From IMG/VR virus record IMGVR_UViG_3300046526_000553, positions 32,001 through 96,000 of that record: a stretch of DNA of 64,000 nucleotides; one strand, 5' to 3'. This DNA is from a virus. Its lineage: Duplodnaviria; Caudoviricetes. A program made the translations under genes and the position numbers. The notes under the pieces are model-generated. The model worked only from the letters and a program-made list of their open reading frames with translations, was not told where the DNA came from and made no database searches. Below are positions 26,545-46,230 of the stretch, in pieces (positions within the stretch are counted from its first letter, which is position 1; each line of letters begins with the position of its first letter).

Positions 26545-26710
26545 AAATTACCCTCAAAATTATCTATGCTTCTATTAAAAGAGTACATAAGGAGTGTAAT
26601 ATCTGACAATAGATAAAATGCGGAAATGTGTTCGAGGAGTTGATTTTTGGATGGTGTTGGTGTATAATTAGTTTACTGCTTTCAGAAGTGAAGTTTAGGC
26701 TTCCATGCGA

Positions 26711-26785
26711 GGAATAGCAGGCGCGTCAAGTCGCGTCCAGACGTGTTGCGTTGAGGCGAGTCATGTCTTGCCCCGGCAAGTCAAC
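26711..26785 (+). repeat. solo pentamer-periodic unit (AGCAGGC + 12 x NNG(T)Y) with its own promoter
   Basis: gcgtc aagtc gcgtc cagac gtgtt gcgtt gaggc gagtc atgtc ttgcc ccggc aagtc. TTGATT-17-TATAAT at 26640-26668. Confidence 0.7.
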
Positions 26786-26827
26786 CAACTTATACAGGGA
26801 ATCGTGAGAAATTGCGGTTCTCTATAA

Positions 26828-40062: not shown

Positions 40063-40137
40063 TGGCGTCCATAAGGAATTTTGAAATCCTGACCTTCCGC
40101 CTGACAAACGGGTGCTCTGCCTCTGAGCTATATGGAC
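40063..40137 (-). tRNA. tRNA-Asp(GUC)
   Basis: Loop TTGTCAG, G73, CCA end. Confidence 0.8.
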
Positions 40138-40140
40138 ATA

Positions 40141-40215
40141 TGGTCTGGAACGAGAATTTCGCAATCTCGGCCTCCGGTTCCCAAAACCGGCGCTCTGCTT
40201 CTGAGCTAGTCCCAG
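40141..40215 (-). tRNA. tRNA-Pro(UGG)
   Basis: Loop TTTGGGA, C1-G72, CCA end. Confidence 0.85.
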
Positions 40216-40398: not shown

Positions 40399-40566
40399 TT
40401 ATTTACTGTTCCTTATCAGTTGTCGAATAATTTTACGTACCCACCCCGATGCGGTCATGCCTTCATCGTGCAAGATATCTATGAATTCGTCATAGGTATC
40501 CATGTCAACGTATACGACGATGCGTCTTTGCTGTTTTTGTTTTATCCTTGGGCTTAGTTGACTCAT
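40399..40566 (-). CDS. ribbon-helix-helix-like protein (55 aa) overlapping the 3' end of the Ro gene; not in the ORF track
   Basis: MSQLSPRIKQKQQRRIVVYVDMDTYDEFIDILHDEGMTASGWVRKIIRQLIRNSK. Confidence 0.55.
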   Translation of the reverse strand: MSQLSPRIKQKQQRRIVVYVDMDTYDEFIDILHDEGMTASGWVRKIIRQLIRNSK

Positions 40567-42046
40567 ATAAATCAATCTTCTCTATCTTATTTACTAATGC
40601 GTTCTTATCGGTATTTAACAACTTTAACACGTCGAAAATTTTGTCTGAAAATCCAGCAATCTGATAGACCTGATTTTCAGGAAACTGCATCGTACCATAG
40701 CCACTTAAGTCAAAAGCGTAGATATATGGATTAGCACCTGTGCGCTTTTTATAATCCTCAAACTGAGCTTTTGGTGTGTAGTAACCTATCCATGCCTGCA
40801 TATCACTGAATATGAAGATGTGGTCATAGGCACGGCTAGCGGTTTCAAAGATAGCGTGAAAGTTAGTGCCATGACCTACAGAAGTGGGGGTGTTAGAACC
40901 ATAGCCATCGTTGCAGTCAGCTAACCAACGCAACTGACCTAGCACACTATCCTGTGTCACATTGTAATACTTGGCAGTATCACCAAAATACATGAAATCA
41001 GCATTGCTTTTCTTTGCCATTGCTACACCGAATAAAGCACCAATTTCGAAATTAGTAGCCTTGCTGCGTTCGCTCATAGAGCTATCCATGCTGCCACTGT
41101 GGTCAACGACCACTAAGGCATTATCGAAAGCAGGCATGTTATTGATTGAAATATCTAGTGCATTGCCAATAGCAGCCAGTGTTTTACGGGCTTCTGGACC
41201 TGCACCCCCATCAATTTCAGCAATTTCCTTATAGGCACTGAAATAACGGAACGGTAGAATCAATGATTTCTTGATAGCCTGCTCATTCTGCAATTGCTTC
41301 AAGGCAATATCAAGCACTTCAGGAGCCTGTTCAATAATATTTCTGAGGTTCCGTAGTAATGCAAACGCTGGAAGTTTGTCTTCCTTCAAAAGCTTAATCC
41401 ATGTATCGGCCTTAAGCTTATCCTTTTCAGCTTCGGTCTTTGCTTTCTGACCAGCCTGGACTAAGCCAGTCTCCCATGTATCAGAGGCACGTAAGGTACC
41501 TTTAATAAGCTGTTGAACAGCTTCGGTGTGAACCGGGTGAACTAGATTAGCTACATCAACAAGACTAACGTCCTTACCTTCGCCACGATATTTAGCTAAA
41601 TTGTAAGCGTTAAAATGTCCAAATGCCTGTGCAAAACCACGCTTAAGTGCATTAGGCTCTGTCTGATGACCAAGTGAATAATAATATGATAGAATTTCTG
41701 TCATATCATCTGGACGACGAATAACATTCTCGAAGAAATACTTTGTCCATGCTTCGCCCTTTACTCGATTAGCAATTTCACCAGCAACCACGTGGCTGAC
41801 ACTACGCATACCGAATTCATTACGAGCGTACACAGCAGCTTTGGCTGCAAACATAGGGTCTACGCTATTAAGTAATTCCTTGAGTTTATCAATGCCATCA
41901 TCAGAACTTCTATAATATTGATTCTGTACAAAACTTGTTAATAGGATTGATACAAACTCCAGCTTAGGGTTTTGCTGGAAAGCTTGACCACCAGCATTAT
42001 TAATAACCATAGTTGGTGAAGTTGTAGCGTTGAATCTACTGCTCAT
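40505..42046 (-). CDS. rsr: Ro60/Rsr-like TROVE + vWA RNA-binding protein
   Basis: NNAGGQAF, YARNEFGMRSVS, LAKYR, TWET, ALLRNLRN, LPFRY, VVDHSGSM (MIDAS), GTNF and FSDMQ motifs. Confidence 0.9.
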   Translation of the reverse strand: MSSRFNATTSPTMVINNAGGQAFQQNPKLEFVSILLTSFVQNQYYRSSDDGIDKLKELLNSVDPMFAAKAAVYARNEFGMRSVSHVVAGEIANRVKGEAWTKYFFENVIRRPDDMTEILSYYYSLGHQTEPNALKRGFAQAFGHFNAYNLAKYRGEGKDVSLVDVANLVHPVHTEAVQQLIKGTLRASDTWETGLVQAGQKAKTEAEKDKLKADTWIKLLKEDKLPAFALLRNLRNIIEQAPEVLDIALKQLQNEQAIKKSLILPFRYFSAYKEIAEIDGGAGPEARKTLAAIGNALDISINNMPAFDNALVVVDHSGSMDSSMSERSKATNFEIGALFGVAMAKKSNADFMYFGDTAKYYNVTQDSVLGQLRWLADCNDGYGSNTPTSVGHGTNFHAIFETASRAYDHIFIFSDMQAWIGYYTPKAQFEDYKKRTGANPYIYAFDLSGYGTMQFPENQVYQIAGFSDKIFDVLKLLNTDKNALVNKIEKIDLYESTKPKDKTKTAKTHRRIR

Positions 42047-42146: not shown

Positions 42147-42276
42147 TGTGCGAGTAAATCATGGTTGGCGTTTCCCTTTCGGGATTCAGTTGGAGTTGAA
42201 CCAACAATCTTTACAATTGAAATGTAACGCTTAAACCAAATAAGCTATGAAGTAGCCAGACCATTCGCTACGCACA
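42147..42276 (-). ncRNA. YrlA-like Y RNA with a tRNA-like domain
   Basis: Closing stem, GCGAATGG..CTACTTC motif, D-like arm and GTTGG-TTCAACT-CCAAC T arm. Confidence 0.75.
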
Positions 42277-42518: not shown

Positions 42519-43265
42519 TTATCTTTGAAAGGCTTTTCTACTTCTTAGGTAGATAAATCTTCCGGCATAACCGAGCGCACTAACGCCTAGAAATGCTGGA
42601 ACGATAGAATTGCCTGCTCCAGTATTTGGCAATGTGGTCGGTTGATTTTGCGCAGTTGGCGTGAATGTCTTTGCTGGCTCACCTGCTCCCTTGCCTGTGT
42701 ACAATGGCGGTGGTACCGATGGAGGTGTTCCAGTAGGTGATGGCGGAGGAGTTACTGGTGCTGGAGGAGTAATCGGCGGGGGTACTGGAGGGGGTGTAGT
42801 TTTATCGCAAGGGCATGGTTTATTAACATGCCTCAGGTGATGTATATACACCTTTTTATCACAAGGTTTCTTGTGCTCATAATTTTTCTGATAAGATGTT
42901 TTAGTATCAACTTTCGTGTATGTCTCTTCGTGTGATACTTCTTTTTTCTTCTTATCACAGGGCTTCTTTTCATGTTCATTTACAATCCGTGGATGAGACT
43001 GTGGGATGACATCAGAATCTGATAAATACGGTTTCTGATATTCAGGCTGTTGTTGATTATCTTTCATATTCTGATTATTGCAATCACTATGATGGCTTTG
43101 TTTATCCTGATTATCCCAATTAGTATCTTTTGTATAGTGTGAATTATCCTGCTGACCACCGCTACAATCGATTGTTGCTAAGGCTGGTGCTGTACTAAGA
43201 GCAAAAACCCCAACCACAATAGTCGGAATGCTCCATACATATTGCCTATATTTATGTTTAATCAT
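42519..43265 (-). CDS. secreted Pro-rich protein with an LPNTG sortase-type anchor
   Basis: Signal peptide, Pro-rich linker, then LPNTG + TM helix + basic tail. Confidence 0.8.
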   Translation of the reverse strand: MIKHKYRQYVWSIPTIVVGVFALSTAPALATIDCSGGQQDNSHYTKDTNWDNQDKQSHHSDCNNQNMKDNQQQPEYQKPYLSDSDVIPQSHPRIVNEHEKKPCDKKKKEVSHEETYTKVDTKTSYQKNYEHKKPCDKKVYIHHLRHVNKPCPCDKTTPPPVPPPITPPAPVTPPPSPTGTPPSVPPPLYTGKGAGEPAKTFTPTAQNQPTTLPNTGAGNSIVPAFLGVSALGYAGRFIYLRSRKAFQR

Positions 43266-43561: not shown

Positions 43562-43837
43562 GATTTTATTATACGCCTATTTTAGCTTGATGTTCGGGAT
43601 AGTAGATTCCCTTGCAACATAGACCTTGAATTCATCAAATAATATATTTCTTAAGAATTTATCGCATTGTTCGCACAAACCGAGTGACCACGAATCAAAA
43701 TTATAAACATGGTGGATTTTTATACCATCGGATTCAATGTGTTCGCAGTTTCTAAAGATAGGGTTAGGTAGGTTGGCTGCTTTGGTCATATAGTTATTAT
43801 ACCACCTGCAGCCAACCTGTGTTAGGAGAAGAGTAAA

Positions 43838-44408
43838 GCCATGCCTTGCCTGCCTTTCCGTACCAACAAGCGCTACCTCGACCGGACACAACTCAACTCG
43901 TCTTGAGGCGACCGGACTCGTGGCGACTCGCCTGCCATGGCTGGACGCTTCGAGACTCGCGATGACCGGACCGGACATCCACGACTCGCTCAGACCTAGC
44001 GCTCCCAGTCACATCTGGACTCGCCGGGACGTGGCTTGACTCACCTGCACTACCTTGATTATGCGGAAACCGGTCATGACAAAACCTATCTCGAAACGTC
44101 TCGTCTCAACACAACATGCCTGCCTTGAGGAGACTTGACGCACCTGGACCTAACTCGACTCGGCTCAACTCGTCGTGAGGAGACTTGACCGGACACTCCT
44201 AGCCTGCCATGAATTGACTCACCTTGACCCGTCAGGAGATGACTTGACCGGACGCACCTCGTCTTGCCTGCCCTGCCTGGACAACCCCAACTTGCCACGA
44301 AAAGAGGTGTCTGAACTTATTGCGACTTTCCCAGCCTGCTATTCCACTCCATGTCATGCCTAGACAATCGCACCGGGACATGACGTGACGAAACGTGACT
44401 CGCCTGCC
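43838..44408 (-). repeat. array of about 7 units, each GGCAGGC followed by 5-nt-periodic NN-GTC pentamers
   Basis: GCCTGCC-like delimiters on + at ~43848, 43930, 44043, 44118, 44202, 44266, 44334 and 44402. Confidence 0.8.
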
Positions 44409-44426
44409 CTGTCTAAGTTATTAGAC

Positions 44427-44996
44427 CTAGACCGGAACAGCTACAAATCCATTAGTCGTACTAATATCTTCGTTTTTACTGTTCTTATCAGCTCCCTTAA
44501 TCCGAGCACGATTTGAAGTTTTCTTCGCCGGTTTAGATATAGCCACATCTTCTTTCTCTTTGGCTTCATCGACCGCTTGCCACACTTTAGCTAATTCAAC
44601 AATATGCTTGTATTTATTCTCAACATTAGTTAATTCAACTAAAGCAGTTTTTAAAAACTGTTCCCGTAAGTCTGGACGTTCCAAAACATCTGTCGTCCAT
44701 CGAAAGCCTCCACCTGCGTCTCTGTCAATATCCAGAGAGGTTAGAACTCTAACTTCGGTATCTAATTGTTCAGAATAAACAGTAAAGCTTTTGATAAGCT
44801 GCCTAGCTTCTTCCAGATTCCAACGATTAGCAGCTTCATCTTTATCCCAAGTGAAAAATTTATGAAGTGGGCTTGATGGCTTTCTAGCTGATTCAACAAG
44901 TGCTTCTTCTTTTAACAAACCATTAGCATCGATGTTCATTAACCTGCTAAATTCAGACTGAACTTCTGCCGTTAGTTTTTTCGGAAAACTATTCAT
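44427..44996 (-). CDS. conserved phage protein paired with the RAMP-like gene
   Basis: LVESARKPSSPLHKFFTWDKDEAANRWNLEEARQLI. Flanked by repeat units on both sides. Confidence 0.7.
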   Translation of the reverse strand: MNSFPKKLTAEVQSEFSRLMNIDANGLLKEEALVESARKPSSPLHKFFTWDKDEAANRWNLEEARQLIKSFTVYSEQLDTEVRVLTSLDIDRDAGGGFRWTTDVLERPDLREQFLKTALVELTNVENKYKHIVELAKVWQAVDEAKEKEDVAISKPAKKTSNRARIKGADKNSKNEDISTTNGFVAVPV

Positions 44997-45080
44997 GTCT
45001 TCTCCTTATATTATTAATATTATTATTGAAAGGCTGGCGCTGCTGGAGTATAAACCATATTGATTTATTAATCAAGCTTT

Positions 45081-45151
45081 GCCAGCCTTGCCGTGACGAA
45101 CCACGACTGGTCTTGTGGCATCTGGACTCAACAAGACTCGACTCGCCTGCC
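45081..45151 (-). repeat. single pentamer-periodic unit between the two genes
   Basis: GGCAGGC gagtc gagtc ttgtt gagtc cagat gccac aagac cagtc gtggt tcgtc acggc aaggc. Confidence 0.75.
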
Positions 45152-45188
45152 AAACATTGCCTTGACTTATAAGAAATAGTAAATTAAA

Positions 45189-45884
45189 CTACTTCTTAAC
45201 TTTGCTTACCTTTTTAGCAGGTTCCTTACCATCACTAGGGCTTGGGCTCTCGACATCAAATGTGCCAAAACCCAAACCAGCTGATGCTCGTGAATCAGGT
45301 CTTCCTTCACCTAGACCAACTTGCAGACCAACTCGACGGAGCAAATTTAACATATCTTCCAATGAAAATTGGTCTTCGTCAAATTTTATGACTGGCAAAG
45401 CATACCATTCACGCCACAAAGGACGAACACGAATGTCAAAAACACCTGTTGCATTTCTTACAGCAGCTTCGTTTCTTTCAGGTTCCCCGTAGATGCGTAC
45501 TAAAGGTTGCCCATCAACTTTGTCGAAACCTTGAGCTTTAACAAAGATGGAAAGCTTTGCGCGAGTCATTGTGAACCCAGTCAAACGACATGCACTGATG
45601 GCTGCAGCTCGAATAGATGAAGCTGGAATCCCAATCCAACCCTCAATGCTCTTATGCATTGCTTGGTGGTAATCATCATCGAAGTTACGGGCTTCCCGTA
45701 CTTTCTTGGCTCCTTGCTTAGTTGAGCCATCCATTTTGCTCATCATCGCTTGCATAGCTTTTTGGCTAAAGCGAGATTGCATATACGGTGCATTACCTTT
45801 CAATTTAACCTGCACCGCTTTTATACGAGGCGCTGAAATTGCAACAGCGACCTCTTTTTTAGTAGATTTTTTTGGACTTGGCAT
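45189..45884 (-). CDS. RAMP/Cas7-like protein
   Basis: N-terminal beta strand + KGNAPY, IPASSIRAA helix, and C-terminal Gly-rich loop VGLGEGRP..GLGFGTFDV. Confidence 0.65.
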   Translation of the reverse strand: MPSPKKSTKKEVAVAISAPRIKAVQVKLKGNAPYMQSRFSQKAMQAMMSKMDGSTKQGAKKVREARNFDDDYHQAMHKSIEGWIGIPASSIRAAAISACRLTGFTMTRAKLSIFVKAQGFDKVDGQPLVRIYGEPERNEAAVRNATGVFDIRVRPLWREWYALPVIKFDEDQFSLEDMLNLLRRVGLQVGLGEGRPDSRASAGLGFGTFDVESPSPSDGKEPAKKVSKVKK

Positions 45885-46230
45885 ATAACTCTTCTCCTTT
45901 ATTGTTAAGTTTATGCTTTATCCACTATACACCAACGTAACAATTATGTCAAGTCATTTTTTTGTCTACATTTTAGTTCAATACTTGGACATGAACCACA
46001 TATTTCAGTTCATTATTTATTGAATTATTAATATACAAAATTGACAACAGGACAATAATTAATACGAATAACCCTAAAATAATAAGCTCCCGCAAATCCT
46101 TCTTCACCAACATCCTTTGATGATATTGTACAGCTTTTTGTTTCATTTTAATTTATAAATGTGGTTAAATTATTCCCATGAGTAGAGACAAGCCAAAACG
46201 AGAAAAAAAGAAGCCTAAGAAACCAAAGAG

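What the first reader, a model, noticed from the sequence alone, without database searches (positions are those of the whole stretch)
43838..45955. RAMP/Cas7-like gene with arrays of 5-nt-periodic RNAs: candidate non-CRISPR RNA-guided system
Seen: the operon runs promoter (TTGACA..TATAGT ~45925-45953), a 231-aa protein with a RAMP-like Gly-rich loop, one repeat unit, a 189-aa partner gene, then a ~570-bp array. Units start with GGCAGGC and continue as pentamers with a semi-fixed triplet and a variable dinucleotide, e.g. ta-gga gt-gtc cg-gtc aa-gtc tc-ctc ac-gac ga-gtt ga-gcc ga-gtc ga-gtt ag-gtc ca-ggt gc-gtc aa-gtc. There is no cas1/cas3 and no classical repeat-spacer array. Established: Cas7/RAMP proteins polymerise on guide RNA with fixed periodicity. 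Inference: each subunit binds one pentamer and the variable positions encode a gapped target. From memory this resembles recently reported viral RAMP + GGY/NN repeat systems (VIPR), but the scaffold triplet here is mainly GTC, so it may be a distinct variant.
Basis: partly seen in the sequence, partly recalled or inferred. Interest (0 to 1): 0.9.

Follow-up and report, generated by a model that had tools for sequence, protein, structure and literature searches.

The report
Phage VIPR guide-RNA system, GUC variant
This is a phage copy of the VIPR system, a CRISPR-related RNA-guided DNA silencer first described in 2026; it spells the fixed part of its five-base guide repeats GUC instead of GGC, and at least three of its guides match integrase genes of mobile elements in Saccharibacteria.

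Summary
The minus strand carries a strong promoter, a 231-aa gene, one pentamer-repeat unit, a 189-aa gene and a ~560-bp array of about nine more units. Same-base frequency at lag 5 is 0.42 against ~0.21 at other lags.

The protein has a Cas7/Csm3 fold (Z ~10) and is a remote homologue of the solved SUSP1 Vipr protein. More than 100 related loci carry the same protein, usually the same partner gene, and pentamer arrays with the same GGCAGGC punctuation. It is therefore a VIPR system, known from two 2026 bioRxiv preprints, and not a new kind of system.

What is new:
- The middle base of the fixed triplet is U in 52-57% of repeats and G in 18-26%. In all ~110 relatives it is G in 52-100% and T in at most 29%.
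- Under the published rule (two bases read, one skipped), three of four guides tested match large serine recombinase genes in Saccharimonadales genomes: 27/30, 27/30 and up to 25/26. Reversed-pattern controls gave none, and a control class gave 0 of 391.
- The phage has two further guide loci, about 23 guides in all.

RNA expression and repression were not tested. This scan had already noted this phage's VIPR system on other stretches.

The parts
45924..45952 (-). Promoter of the operon (TTGACA, 17 nt, TATAGT), of the phage's recurrent class with TGGTGTATA before the -10 box
   Evidence: 11 of 12 matches, the best in the region; 17 sites of this class in the genome, including the sites in front of the orphan guide and of array B.
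45189..45884 (-). vipr: 231-aa Vipr protein with a Cas7-like RAMP fold
   Evidence: AF2 model pLDDT 82. Foldseek and VIA top hits are all Cas7-family chains, led by Csm3 (Z 10.2, rmsd 3.6, 154 residues). Profile against PDB 36pp 'SUSP1 Vipr protein' E 1.6e-5. hhalign against the Felixounavirus Alf5 Vipr, probability 96%, E 3.8e-9. PHROG phrog_4652 E 5e-16.
45073..45151 (-). Guide unit A0 (vrRNA between vipr and vap): GGCAGGC, 12 pentamers, then GGCTGGCA
   Evidence: Relatives such as Cy-LDV1 also carry guides in this gap.
45030..45089 (-). Long hairpin overlapping the 3' end of unit A0 (9-bp outer stem AAGGCTGGC/GCCAGCCTT); possible 3' cap, terminator or attenuator before vap
   Evidence: inverted repeat I2; fold of 45010-45155, -45.6 kcal/mol, z -3.98, 0 of 200 shuffles as good. 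Its function is inferred.
44427..44996 (-). vap: 189-aa accessory protein with an N-terminal alpha/beta domain (SPLH..F.WD..A....R..QAR motif), a long helix (residues 108-171) and a basic tail
   Evidence: tblastn finds a homologue in about two dozen of the 44 related loci then held; in the loci checked it lies next to vipr. 29% identity to Cy-LDV1 g33, E 7e-10. Alignment A2. No Pfam or NCBIfam family. AF2 pLDDT 72. Only weak forkhead/MarR-like fold hits, E 0.6-2. Not homologous to the SUSP1-clade vap1.
43850..44408 (-). Array A: about nine staggered guide units separated by GGCAGGC. Unit spans: 44408-44343, 44342-44273 (degenerate), 44272-44209, 44208-44125, 44124-44049, 44048-43977, 43976-43937, 43936-43855, and a short end unit from 43854
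44130..44204 (-). Guide A.4: its variable bases spell Y-V-R-K-S-T-[DE]x4-R-Q-A-K-S under the one-base-skip rule
   Evidence: 27/30 matches in 2 of 401 Saccharimonadales genomes, at the N-terminal catalytic-serine motif of large serine recombinases. Skips of 0, 2 or 3 give only 16-19/30.
44046..44120 (-). Guide A.5a: spells I-V-D-E-V-D-R-F-M-R-S-I
   Evidence: 27/30 in 2 of 401 genomes, at the D-R-x-x-R motif (residue 81) of large serine recombinases whose 3' ends overlap tRNA-Lys genes.
43868..43932 (-). Guide A.7: spells E-A-E-R-A-K-D-E-V-R-D
   Evidence: 47 places in 43 of 401 Saccharimonadales genomes with 1-3 mismatches of 26, reversed-pattern control 0. All six fetched sites lie at residue ~150-163 of large serine recombinases. 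0 of 391 genomes in a control class.
26720..26784 (+). Orphan guide unit (13 pentamers, same GTC style) with its own promoter at 26640-26668; it belongs to the same system but lies outside the finding's coordinates

Best explanation
The locus is a phage-encoded VIPR system.

Shown here or read from the sequence:
- One promoter fronts vipr, guide A0, vap and array A, all on one strand.
- The guides are runs of 7-16 pentamers, each a fixed triplet (G, mostly U, pyrimidine) followed by two free bases.
- Neighbouring guides are set apart by GGCAGGC, where two triplets lie four bases apart instead of five.
- Guides A.4, A.5a and A.7 copy codon positions 1-2 of three conserved catalytic-domain motifs of large serine recombinases. 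These are the serine nucleophile motif, the D-R-x-x-R motif and a conserved stretch about 70 residues further on (from memory this resembles the E-helix region; I did not check it). The genes lie in Saccharimonadales genomes, in three different lineages of the family, and three of them overlap tRNA genes at their 3' ends, as integrated elements' integrases often do.
- The guides have the sense of the mRNA, so they cannot pair with it. They can pair only with the template DNA strand.

Taken from the SUSP1 work (10.64898/2026.04.26.720920 and .720927), not tested here:
- One Vipr protomer binds each pentamer, hides the triplet and presents the two free bases.
- The filament pairs those bases with double-stranded DNA, skipping every third target base.
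- The bound filament represses transcription.

My inferences:
- The -1 break stops a Vipr filament from running on into the next guide, so it marks guide ends without a structured tail.
- The phage silences the integrases of resident integrated elements or satellites of its Saccharibacteria host, so that they cannot excise or integrate at its expense.
- Reading only codon positions 1-2 of conserved motifs lets one guide cover many diverged alleles.
- vap has no nuclease-like features, so it more likely helps DNA binding than cutting.
- The G-to-U shift at triplet position 2 reflects a loosened or re-tuned pocket in this sub-clade.
For: Protein:
- RAMP fold, Z ~10 to Csm3 over residues 18-215.
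- The only significant PDB sequence match is the SUSP1 Vipr.
- hhalign aligns the thumb end and G-loop: SUSP1 R138 = R154, D177 = E193, R179 = R195.

Family context:
- 2445 homologues in the protein database and at least 564 in IMG/VR.
- Nearly all of the ~110 fetched loci with enough flanking DNA to score have pentamer arrays on the gene strand; the delimiter was seen in every array printed.
- About two dozen of the first 44 related loci encode a vap homologue.

Strand: GGC/NN in relatives is strand-specific and matches the gene strand. The promoters in front of all three guide loci point the same way as the reading.

Targets:
- A.4 27/30 in 2 of 401 genomes, A.5a 27/30 in 2 of 401, A.7 up to 25/26 in 43 of 401. 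Reversed-pattern controls were 0.
- On ten recombinase loci, 0 of 100 order-shuffled guides reach the observed scores.
- Only a one-base skip works for A.4.
- The hits are Resolvase-domain proteins.
- tRNA genes overlap the 3' ends of three of the genes.
- A.7 gave 0 of 391 genomes in the class of Nocardioides flavus.

Other:
- The pooled variable dinucleotides fit sense codon positions 1-2 best, about 36 bits over background in total (0.136 bit each x 267, my arithmetic), and 14 of 23 guides prefer that model.
- No self-targets above shuffled controls, as the paper also reports.
- No Cas1 in the genome.
Against: - No RNA, binding or repression data exist for this locus.
- No perfect target was found. 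Exact scans of IMG/VR with two parts of A.4 gave nothing. Guide A0 gave 0 of 391 genomes, where the control gave one chance hit.
- The other guides sit at background on the recombinase loci, except B.11, which is borderline at 16/20.
- The matched genes are therefore relatives of the true targets, found because the motifs are conserved, and no guide was matched to an identified satellite or prophage. The element beside one target shows no clear phage genes.
- The defining GGY motif is not kept at its second base.
- SUSP1's W178, which stacks on that base, is glycine in all 75 aligned members of this clade, so the structural details may not transfer.
- The host assignment rests on these matches and on an earlier unchecked note.
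Confidence: 0.85

Rival explanations
1. It is a VIPR system, but the GUC spelling has no functional meaning. In this clade the second triplet base is weakly read, and in an AT-rich phage it drifted away from G without any change in the protein.
For: Position 2 is the loosest triplet position across relatives, with G ranging from 52 to 100%. The window's Vipr has no unique residue at any conserved column. The phage is AT-rich, 38-41% GC. W178 of SUSP1 is absent from the whole clade.
Against: Drift in an AT-rich genome should give A about as often as T, but T is 52% and A 16%. Equally AT-rich relatives keep G: L012/L013 (41% GC) 85-91%, L245 (42% GC) 83%, L246 (43% GC) 98%. Delimiter triplets stay GGC, so the change is confined to inner repeats (19 of 23 units start with GGC). 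The window's sub-clade differs from the GGC-type relatives at helix-1 positions 90-95 and at the G-loop aromatic residue 206.
Confidence: 0.35
2. The array is a decaying, no longer functional remnant of a GGC-type VIPR array.
For: One unit (44342-44273) is badly degenerate. Two delimiters are decayed: AGCAGGC near 44340 and GTGCAGGT near 44050. Position 2 departs from the family norm.
Against: G at position 1 (90%), pyrimidine at position 3 (94%) and the pentamer register are kept across 267 pentamers in three loci. The vipr and vap genes are intact, and promoters precede all three loci. Three guides still match real genes at 90-96%, which random decay would have erased.
Confidence: 0.05
3. 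The complex targets RNA, as the structurally closest CRISPR proteins (Csm3, Cmr4, Cas7-11) do, rather than DNA.
For: The best structural matches are RNA-targeting type III, III-E and VII backbones.
Against: All three matched guides carry the same sense as the coding strand, so they cannot pair with those mRNAs. The pooled dinucleotides fit sense codon positions far better than antisense ones, by about 63 bits (0.236 bit each x 267, my arithmetic). The characterised VIPR binds double-stranded DNA (10.64898/2026.04.26.720920).
Confidence: 0.04

Closest known systems
VIPR systems (Vipr protein plus vrRNA), bioRxiv 10.64898/2026.04.26.720920 and 10.64898/2026.04.26.720927; characterised type II example Escherichia phage SUSP1 (PDB 36pp)
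   Same: A phage-borne two-gene locus (vipr plus an accessory gene) without cas genes or a CRISPR array. A small RAMP protein homologous in its thumb and G-loop region. Guides flank the genes, with one guide locus on the far side of vipr from the downstream array. Each guide is a run of pentamers with a fixed triplet and two free bases. Targets follow the one-base-skip rule, with the skipped base at codon wobble positions. Targets lie in rival mobile elements. No self-targets.
   Different: The triplet is G-U-Y rather than G-G-Y. The text of the paper lists YNNGG and the variants NNNGG, YNNNG and NNNNG, and none of these equals YNNGN. The array units have no ~40-nt pseudoknot tail and instead abut through a GGCAGGC -1 break, which fits the 'staggered arrays with 1-nt overlap' of that paper's fig. 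S18. The vap is not homologous to SUSP1-clade vap1. SUSP1's W178 is glycine here and the G-loop carries an 8-residue insert. Guides sit in three separate loci. The likely host is a Saccharibacterium. I could not assign a VIPR type because the paper's figures and tables are not held.
Locus g34-g33 of Cyanophage Cy-LDV1 (BK059895.1), both genes annotated as hypothetical proteins
   Same: The closest deposited phage record. Its Vipr is 60.6% identical and its vap is homologous. It has guides between and after the two genes and the same GGCAGGC delimiter.
   Different: Its arrays are canonical GGC/NN, with G at position 2 in 83%. It is a 47-kb, GC-rich temperate-looking phage with the locus next to cI, excisionase and recombination genes.
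Cas7-family backbone subunits of class 1 CRISPR effectors (Csm3, Cmr4, type VII Cas7, Cas7-11 domains)
   Same: The same RAMP fold over residues 18-215 (Z 8-10). By analogy they polymerise along a guide RNA at a fixed period, and a thumb flips out bases at regular intervals.
   Different: About 10-15% sequence identity. CRISPR subunits have a six-base period with one base flipped, and they read contiguous spacers between repeats, with adaptation genes present. Here the period is five bases with three hidden, there is no repeat-spacer array, and there is no Cas1.

Membership tests
VIPR system | Vipr protein: a minimal RAMP with RRM core, glycine-rich loop and thumb, homologous to known Viprs | tested here: met
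   Z 10.2 to Csm3. Profile against PDB 36pp SUSP1 Vipr, E 1.6e-5. hhalign against Alf5 Vipr, probability 96%. Invariant G190, E193, G194, R195 with near-invariant G192, P196 in the G-loop, and invariant R154, P155 at the end of the thumb.
VIPR system | vrRNAs built of tandem pentamers, each a conserved triplet alternating with two hypervariable bases, 9-16 repeats per RNA | tested here: met
   Lag-5 same-base frequency 0.42 against 0.21. Units of 7-16 pentamers. G at position 1 in 90% and pyrimidine at position 3 in 94%, with diverse variable bases.
VIPR system | The conserved triplet is GGY (or one of the listed variants NNNGG, YNNNG, NNNNG) | tested here: not met
   Position 2 is T 52%, G 26%, A 16%, C 6%. 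The consensus is G-U-Y, that is YNNGN, which is not among the spellings named in the paper's text (for the paper's list). Only the delimiter triplets are GGC. I treat this as a variant of one feature, not as grounds for exclusion, because the protein, the locus architecture and the targeting rule all agree.
VIPR system | A minimal locus of vipr plus one accessory gene, long non-coding flanks, and no cas genes or CRISPR array | tested here: met
   The vap is conserved in related loci.
VIPR system | Mainly carried by phages or proviruses | tested here: met
   The window lies in a 143,778-bp IMG/VR virus record estimated 94% complete. PHROG hits flank the locus.
VIPR system | Targets follow the one-base-skip rule (NNx), usually in coding sequence with the skip at the wobble base, in rival mobile elements, with no self-targets | tested here: met
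   A.4, A.5a and A.7 match serine recombinase genes at 27/30, 27/30 and up to 25/26. Other skip lengths fail for A.4. No self-targets. No perfect match was found, and one guide (A0) had no hit.
VIPR system | vrRNAs are expressed, co-purify with Vipr, and the complex represses transcription at double-stranded DNA targets | not testable with these tools
   This needs small-RNA sequencing, pull-down and reporter assays.
VIPR type II (SUSP1 / P. fulva clade) | The vap1 accessory protein and a conserved ~40-nt 3' tail (a pseudoknot in the SUSP1 clade) on each vrRNA | tested here: not met
   hhalign of the vap family against Alf5 vap1 gives probability 0.2%. Array units abut directly through GGCAGGC with no room for a 40-nt tail. 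Only unit A0 is followed by a hairpin.
CRISPR-Cas class 1 | A repeat-spacer array and adaptation genes (cas1/cas2) | tested here: not met
   No Cas1 in the 144-kb genome. The repeats found are pentamer runs, not 25-40-nt repeats with spacers.

The most novel reading that the evidence does not exclude
The G-U-Y scaffold is an adaptive re-coding. This Vipr sub-clade (helix-1 S90/I91/A93/A95 and G-loop F206) has a re-tuned pocket for the second triplet base, which makes its guides orthogonal to the GGY-reading Viprs of competing elements. Rivals then could not load or hijack its roughly 23 guides. If so, the scaffold triplet would be a second, evolvable specificity layer in VIPR, matching guide to protein, and would offer a natural pair of orthogonal VIPR systems.
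Probability: 0.2. Interest if true: 0.6.

Novelty: new variant of a known kind. Interest (0 to 1): 0.45.

Why it matters
VIPR was described only in 2026 and characterised in E. coli and Pseudomonas phages, so natural variation is informative. This locus adds four things:
- A natural system in which the supposedly fixed GGY motif has shifted to GUY while the delimiter stays GGC. That is a ready-made test of how strictly the second guanine is read, and of whether scaffold and protein co-evolve.
- Computational support for the one-base-skip code in a distant clade and a different host phylum.
- A coherent target set: conserved catalytic motifs of integrases. This suggests the code is used to hit protein-level conserved sites regardless of synonymous variation.
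- A second line of evidence, beside an earlier unchecked note of this scan, linking an uncultured 144-kb soil phage to Saccharibacteria hosts.

It does not open a new category.

Tried and rejected
- Exact NNx scans of IMG/VR with two parts of guide A.4 (22 and 20 specified bases) found nothing.
- A Pfam scan of the decoded 16-residue peptide padded with X gave nothing, because it is too short for HMMER.
I therefore could not fetch the DNA of the closest Vipr relatives (70-81% identical, P0002-P0020), and could not test whether the GUC spelling is a trait of that sub-clade.
- The genome contigs protein scan found no relative.
- Fold searches for vap gave no significant match. The wide VIA search was dominated by the long helix and Foldseek gave only weak forkhead/MarR hits, so 'winged-helix-like' remains a guess.
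- I looked for window-specific substitutions at conserved Vipr columns and found none.
- Guide A0 had no match in 391 genomes. The other guides had no match in the four elements that carry the A.4 and A.5a targets.
- A link to the Ro60/TROVE gene 2 kb away (a Y-RNA-like array) was considered and dropped: there is no Rfam hit, and the array style is that of Vipr relatives that lack Ro60.
- The ORFs listed inside the array (133 aa at 43577-43978, 70 aa at 44086-44298) are by-products of the GC-rich repeats. The signal has period 5, not 3.
Full report
**What is there.** On the minus strand the region reads: promoter TTGACA-17-TATAGT (45952-45924, 11/12), a 231-aa ORF (45189-45884), a GC-rich repeat unit (45151 to about 45073), a 189-aa ORF (44427-44996), and a 560-bp GC-rich tract (44408 to about 43850). 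The tract has a strict five-base period. Same-base frequency is 0.42, 0.39, 0.38 and 0.36 at lags 5, 10, 15 and 20 against about 0.21 elsewhere, and the neighbouring coding sequence shows nothing of the kind. Printed in fives, whole units stay in register.

A register-tracking parse resolves units of 7-16 pentamers, each a triplet plus two free bases. Units are separated by GGCAGGC, which is two triplets four bases apart, a -1 register break. Over all 267 pentamers of the phage, triplet position 1 is G in 90% and position 3 is a pyrimidine in 94%. Position 2 is T 52%, G 26%, A 16%, C 6%. The first triplet of a unit is GGC in 19 of 23.

**The protein.** Pfam finds nothing. PHROGs gives phrog_4652, function unknown. 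An AlphaFold model built on 75 homologues (pLDDT 82) matches only Cas7-family RAMPs: Csm3 at Z 10.2 (rmsd 3.6, 154 residues), then Cmr4, type VII Cas7 and Cas7-11 domains. By sequence, the only significant match in the PDB is entry 36pp, 'SUSP1 Vipr protein' (phmmer E 0.0028; family profile E 1.6e-5).

hhalign against the Vipr of Felixounavirus Alf5, which matched the 46-residue SUSP1 fragment at 100%, gives probability 96% and E 3.8e-9. It aligns the end of the thumb and the G-loop. SUSP1 R138 corresponds to R154, D177 to E193 and R179 to R195. SUSP1 W178 corresponds to G194, and an 8-residue insert follows.

**What is known.** Two 2026 bioRxiv preprints (10.64898/2026.04.26.720920 and 10.64898/2026.04.26.720927) describe VIPR:
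- A phage-borne Vipr RAMP with an accessory vap gene.
- vrRNAs of 9-16 YNNGG repeats.
- One protomer per repeat, hiding GGY and presenting NN.
- Recognition of double-stranded DNA in which every third target base is skipped.
- Transcriptional repression of competing mobile elements.
- Seven types, with variant consensus spellings and variant array forms. One form is 'staggered arrays' in which neighbouring vrRNAs overlap by one base.

The GGCAGGC break seen here is what a one-base overlap of two pentamers looks like.

**Relatives.** The family is large: 2445 proteins in the protein database and at least 564 loci in IMG/VR. I fetched about 110 loci at 47-65% identity. Nearly all of those with enough flanking DNA to score have five-base-periodic tracts on the gene strand next to vipr, and every array I printed shows the same GGCAGGC delimiter. 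tblastn finds a homologue of the 189-aa protein in about two dozen of the 44 related loci held at that point.

The closest deposited phage, Cyanophage Cy-LDV1, has the same gene order, with both genes annotated as hypothetical. In relatives the repeat is GGC/NN, which is strand-specific, so the guides are read on the gene strand. The promoters in front of all three guide loci of this phage agree. The vap is not related to the SUSP1-clade vap1 and has no assignable family or fold. The array units also have no room for the 40-nt tail of type II. This is a VIPR system of another type than the characterised one. Which of the seven types I cannot say, because the figures and tables are not held.

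**The GUC spelling.** In every relative, triplet position 2 is G in 52-100% of repeats and T in at most 29%. Here T is 52-57% and G 18-26%. AT pressure alone does not explain it. Relatives with 41-43% GC keep G at 83-98%, and A would be expected as often as T. The delimiter triplets remain GGC.

The window's Vipr has no unique residue at a conserved column. Together with its closest protein relatives it does differ from all the GGC-type loci I could score, at helix-1 positions 90, 91, 93 and 95 and at the G-loop aromatic position 206. The locus nearest in this signature (L190) has a relaxed G2 of 64%. [quoted passage not shown] Whether the shift is adaptive or drift is open.

**Targets.** I read each guide as NNx and searched with it.
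- The phage's own genome has no match above order-shuffled controls, as the paper found for its systems.
- The pooled dinucleotides (G-rich first base, A-rich second) fit sense codon positions 1-2 better than any other frame, strand or the background.
I tested both.
- Exact scans of IMG/VR found nothing.
- Using handles obtained through a 16S probe, I searched about 400 Saccharimonadales genomes per guide with up to three mismatches.

| Guide | Result in Saccharimonadales genomes | Motif matched |
|---|---|---|
| A.4 | 27/30 in 2 of 401 | Y-x-R-K-S-[ST]-E-x-[ED]-[ED]-R-Q, the catalytic-serine motif at the N-terminus |
| A.5a | 27/30 in 2 of 401 | I-V-D-E-V-D-R-F-M-R-S-I, the D-R-x-x-R motif |
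| A.7 | 47 places in 43 of 401, best 25/26 | E-A-E-R-[AS]-K-D-E-x-R-D-I, about residue 155 |
| A0 | no hit in 391; the reversed control gave one chance hit | none |

All the hits lie in large serine recombinase genes, from three different lineages. Reversed-pattern controls were zero for the three matching guides. Only a skip of one base works for A.4. On ten recombinase loci, 0 of 100 shuffles reach the observed scores. A.7 has no hit in 391 genomes of the class of Nocardioides flavus, which hold several times more DNA. Three of the recombinase genes end inside tRNA genes, as integrases of integrated elements often do.

The matched genes are probably relatives of the true targets. No perfect match was found, the other guides do not hit the same elements, and the one neighbourhood I examined is not recognisably a prophage.

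**How it most likely works.** The gene order, the fold, the homology, the guide anatomy, the strand, and the near-matches to integrase genes under the one-base-skip rule are shown here. One protomer per pentamer, binding of double-stranded DNA and repression are taken from the SUSP1 work.

Four steps are my inference:
- The -1 break ends a filament and so defines guides.
- The phage silences integrases of resident elements or satellites in a Saccharibacteria host.
- Aiming at codon positions 1-2 of catalytic motifs gives breadth across alleles.
- vap aids DNA engagement rather than cutting.

Because all three matched guides have mRNA sense, RNA targeting is unlikely.

**Beyond the window.** The phage has an orphan guide with its own promoter at window 26720-26784 (+). 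It also has a second array of about 14 guides at genome 124,956-125,830 (+), 49 kb away and outside the window. Both use the GTC style. This scan had already followed up that second array and reached the same VIPR reading.

**Verdict.** This is a real, well-formed VIPR system. It is known in kind, and it is a variant in the spelling of its scaffold triplet. Its target set, host integrase genes, is plausible and partly demonstrated.

Noticed in passing
window 26640-26790 (+): An orphan single guide unit (13 pentamers, GTC style, preceded by AGCAGGC) with its own promoter of the TGGTGTATAAT class, 17 kb from the vipr gene.
   Followed up: partly
genome 124,920-125,860 (+), outside the window (would be window 92,920-93,860): A second array of about 14 guide units with a promoter in front and an internal promoter at 125,700. 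One guide (B.12) decodes to [KN][DE]PYG[DE]R[DE][FL]G, and B.11 matches a recombinase gene at 16/20 (borderline).
   Followed up: partly
window 40505-42046 (-): A 513-aa Ro60/TROVE-like RNA-binding protein with a vWA domain (Pfam TROVE E 1.9e-17; phrog_850 E 2.5e-48), lying between tRNA genes (40066-40215 and 42185-42251). No Y-RNA-like Rfam hit nearby.
   Followed up: no
window 42519-43265 (-): A 248-aa proline-rich protein with an N-terminal signal-like segment and a C-terminal LPNTG motif, hydrophobic stretch and basic tail. This is a sortase-type cell-wall anchor signal, encoded by a phage.
   Followed up: no
whole genome; in the window e.g. 31685, 36655, 45952, 48928, 59870, 62224: A recurrent promoter class, TTGAC/TTGCx, then 11-14 nt, then TGGTGTATA(A/G)T. 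There are 17 sites in the genome, and a fixed-spacing version gives 7 matches in the window against 1.4 expected.
   Followed up: partly
window 43770-43818: A perfect 11-bp inverted repeat (AGGTTGGCTGC / GCAGCCAACCT, 27-nt loop) that encloses the TATAAT box and the start codon of the small gene after array A. It may be a terminator for the array or a regulator of that gene.
   Followed up: no
L170, L171, L169 (Saccharimonadales genomes G029, G102, G248): Large serine recombinase genes whose 3' ends overlap tRNA-Lys(UUU) or tRNA-Pro(UGG) genes. One lineage (the A.7 target) is present in 43 of 401 genomes sampled, in up to three copies, often about 2 kb from contig ends.
   Followed up: partly
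L248 (IMGVR_UViG_3300036861_001052, 138,414 bp): Another large (138-kb) viral contig encodes a Vipr 51% identical to this one, with a canonical GGC array. This shows VIPR in a second large phage genome.
   Followed up: no
L196 and L193 (IMG/VR, 47% GC, Vipr 61% identical): Intermediate arrays in which GTC is the second commonest triplet (for example GGC 22, GTC 14; T at position 2 in 23-29%). These are the nearest approach to the window's spelling among the relatives scored.
   Followed up: no
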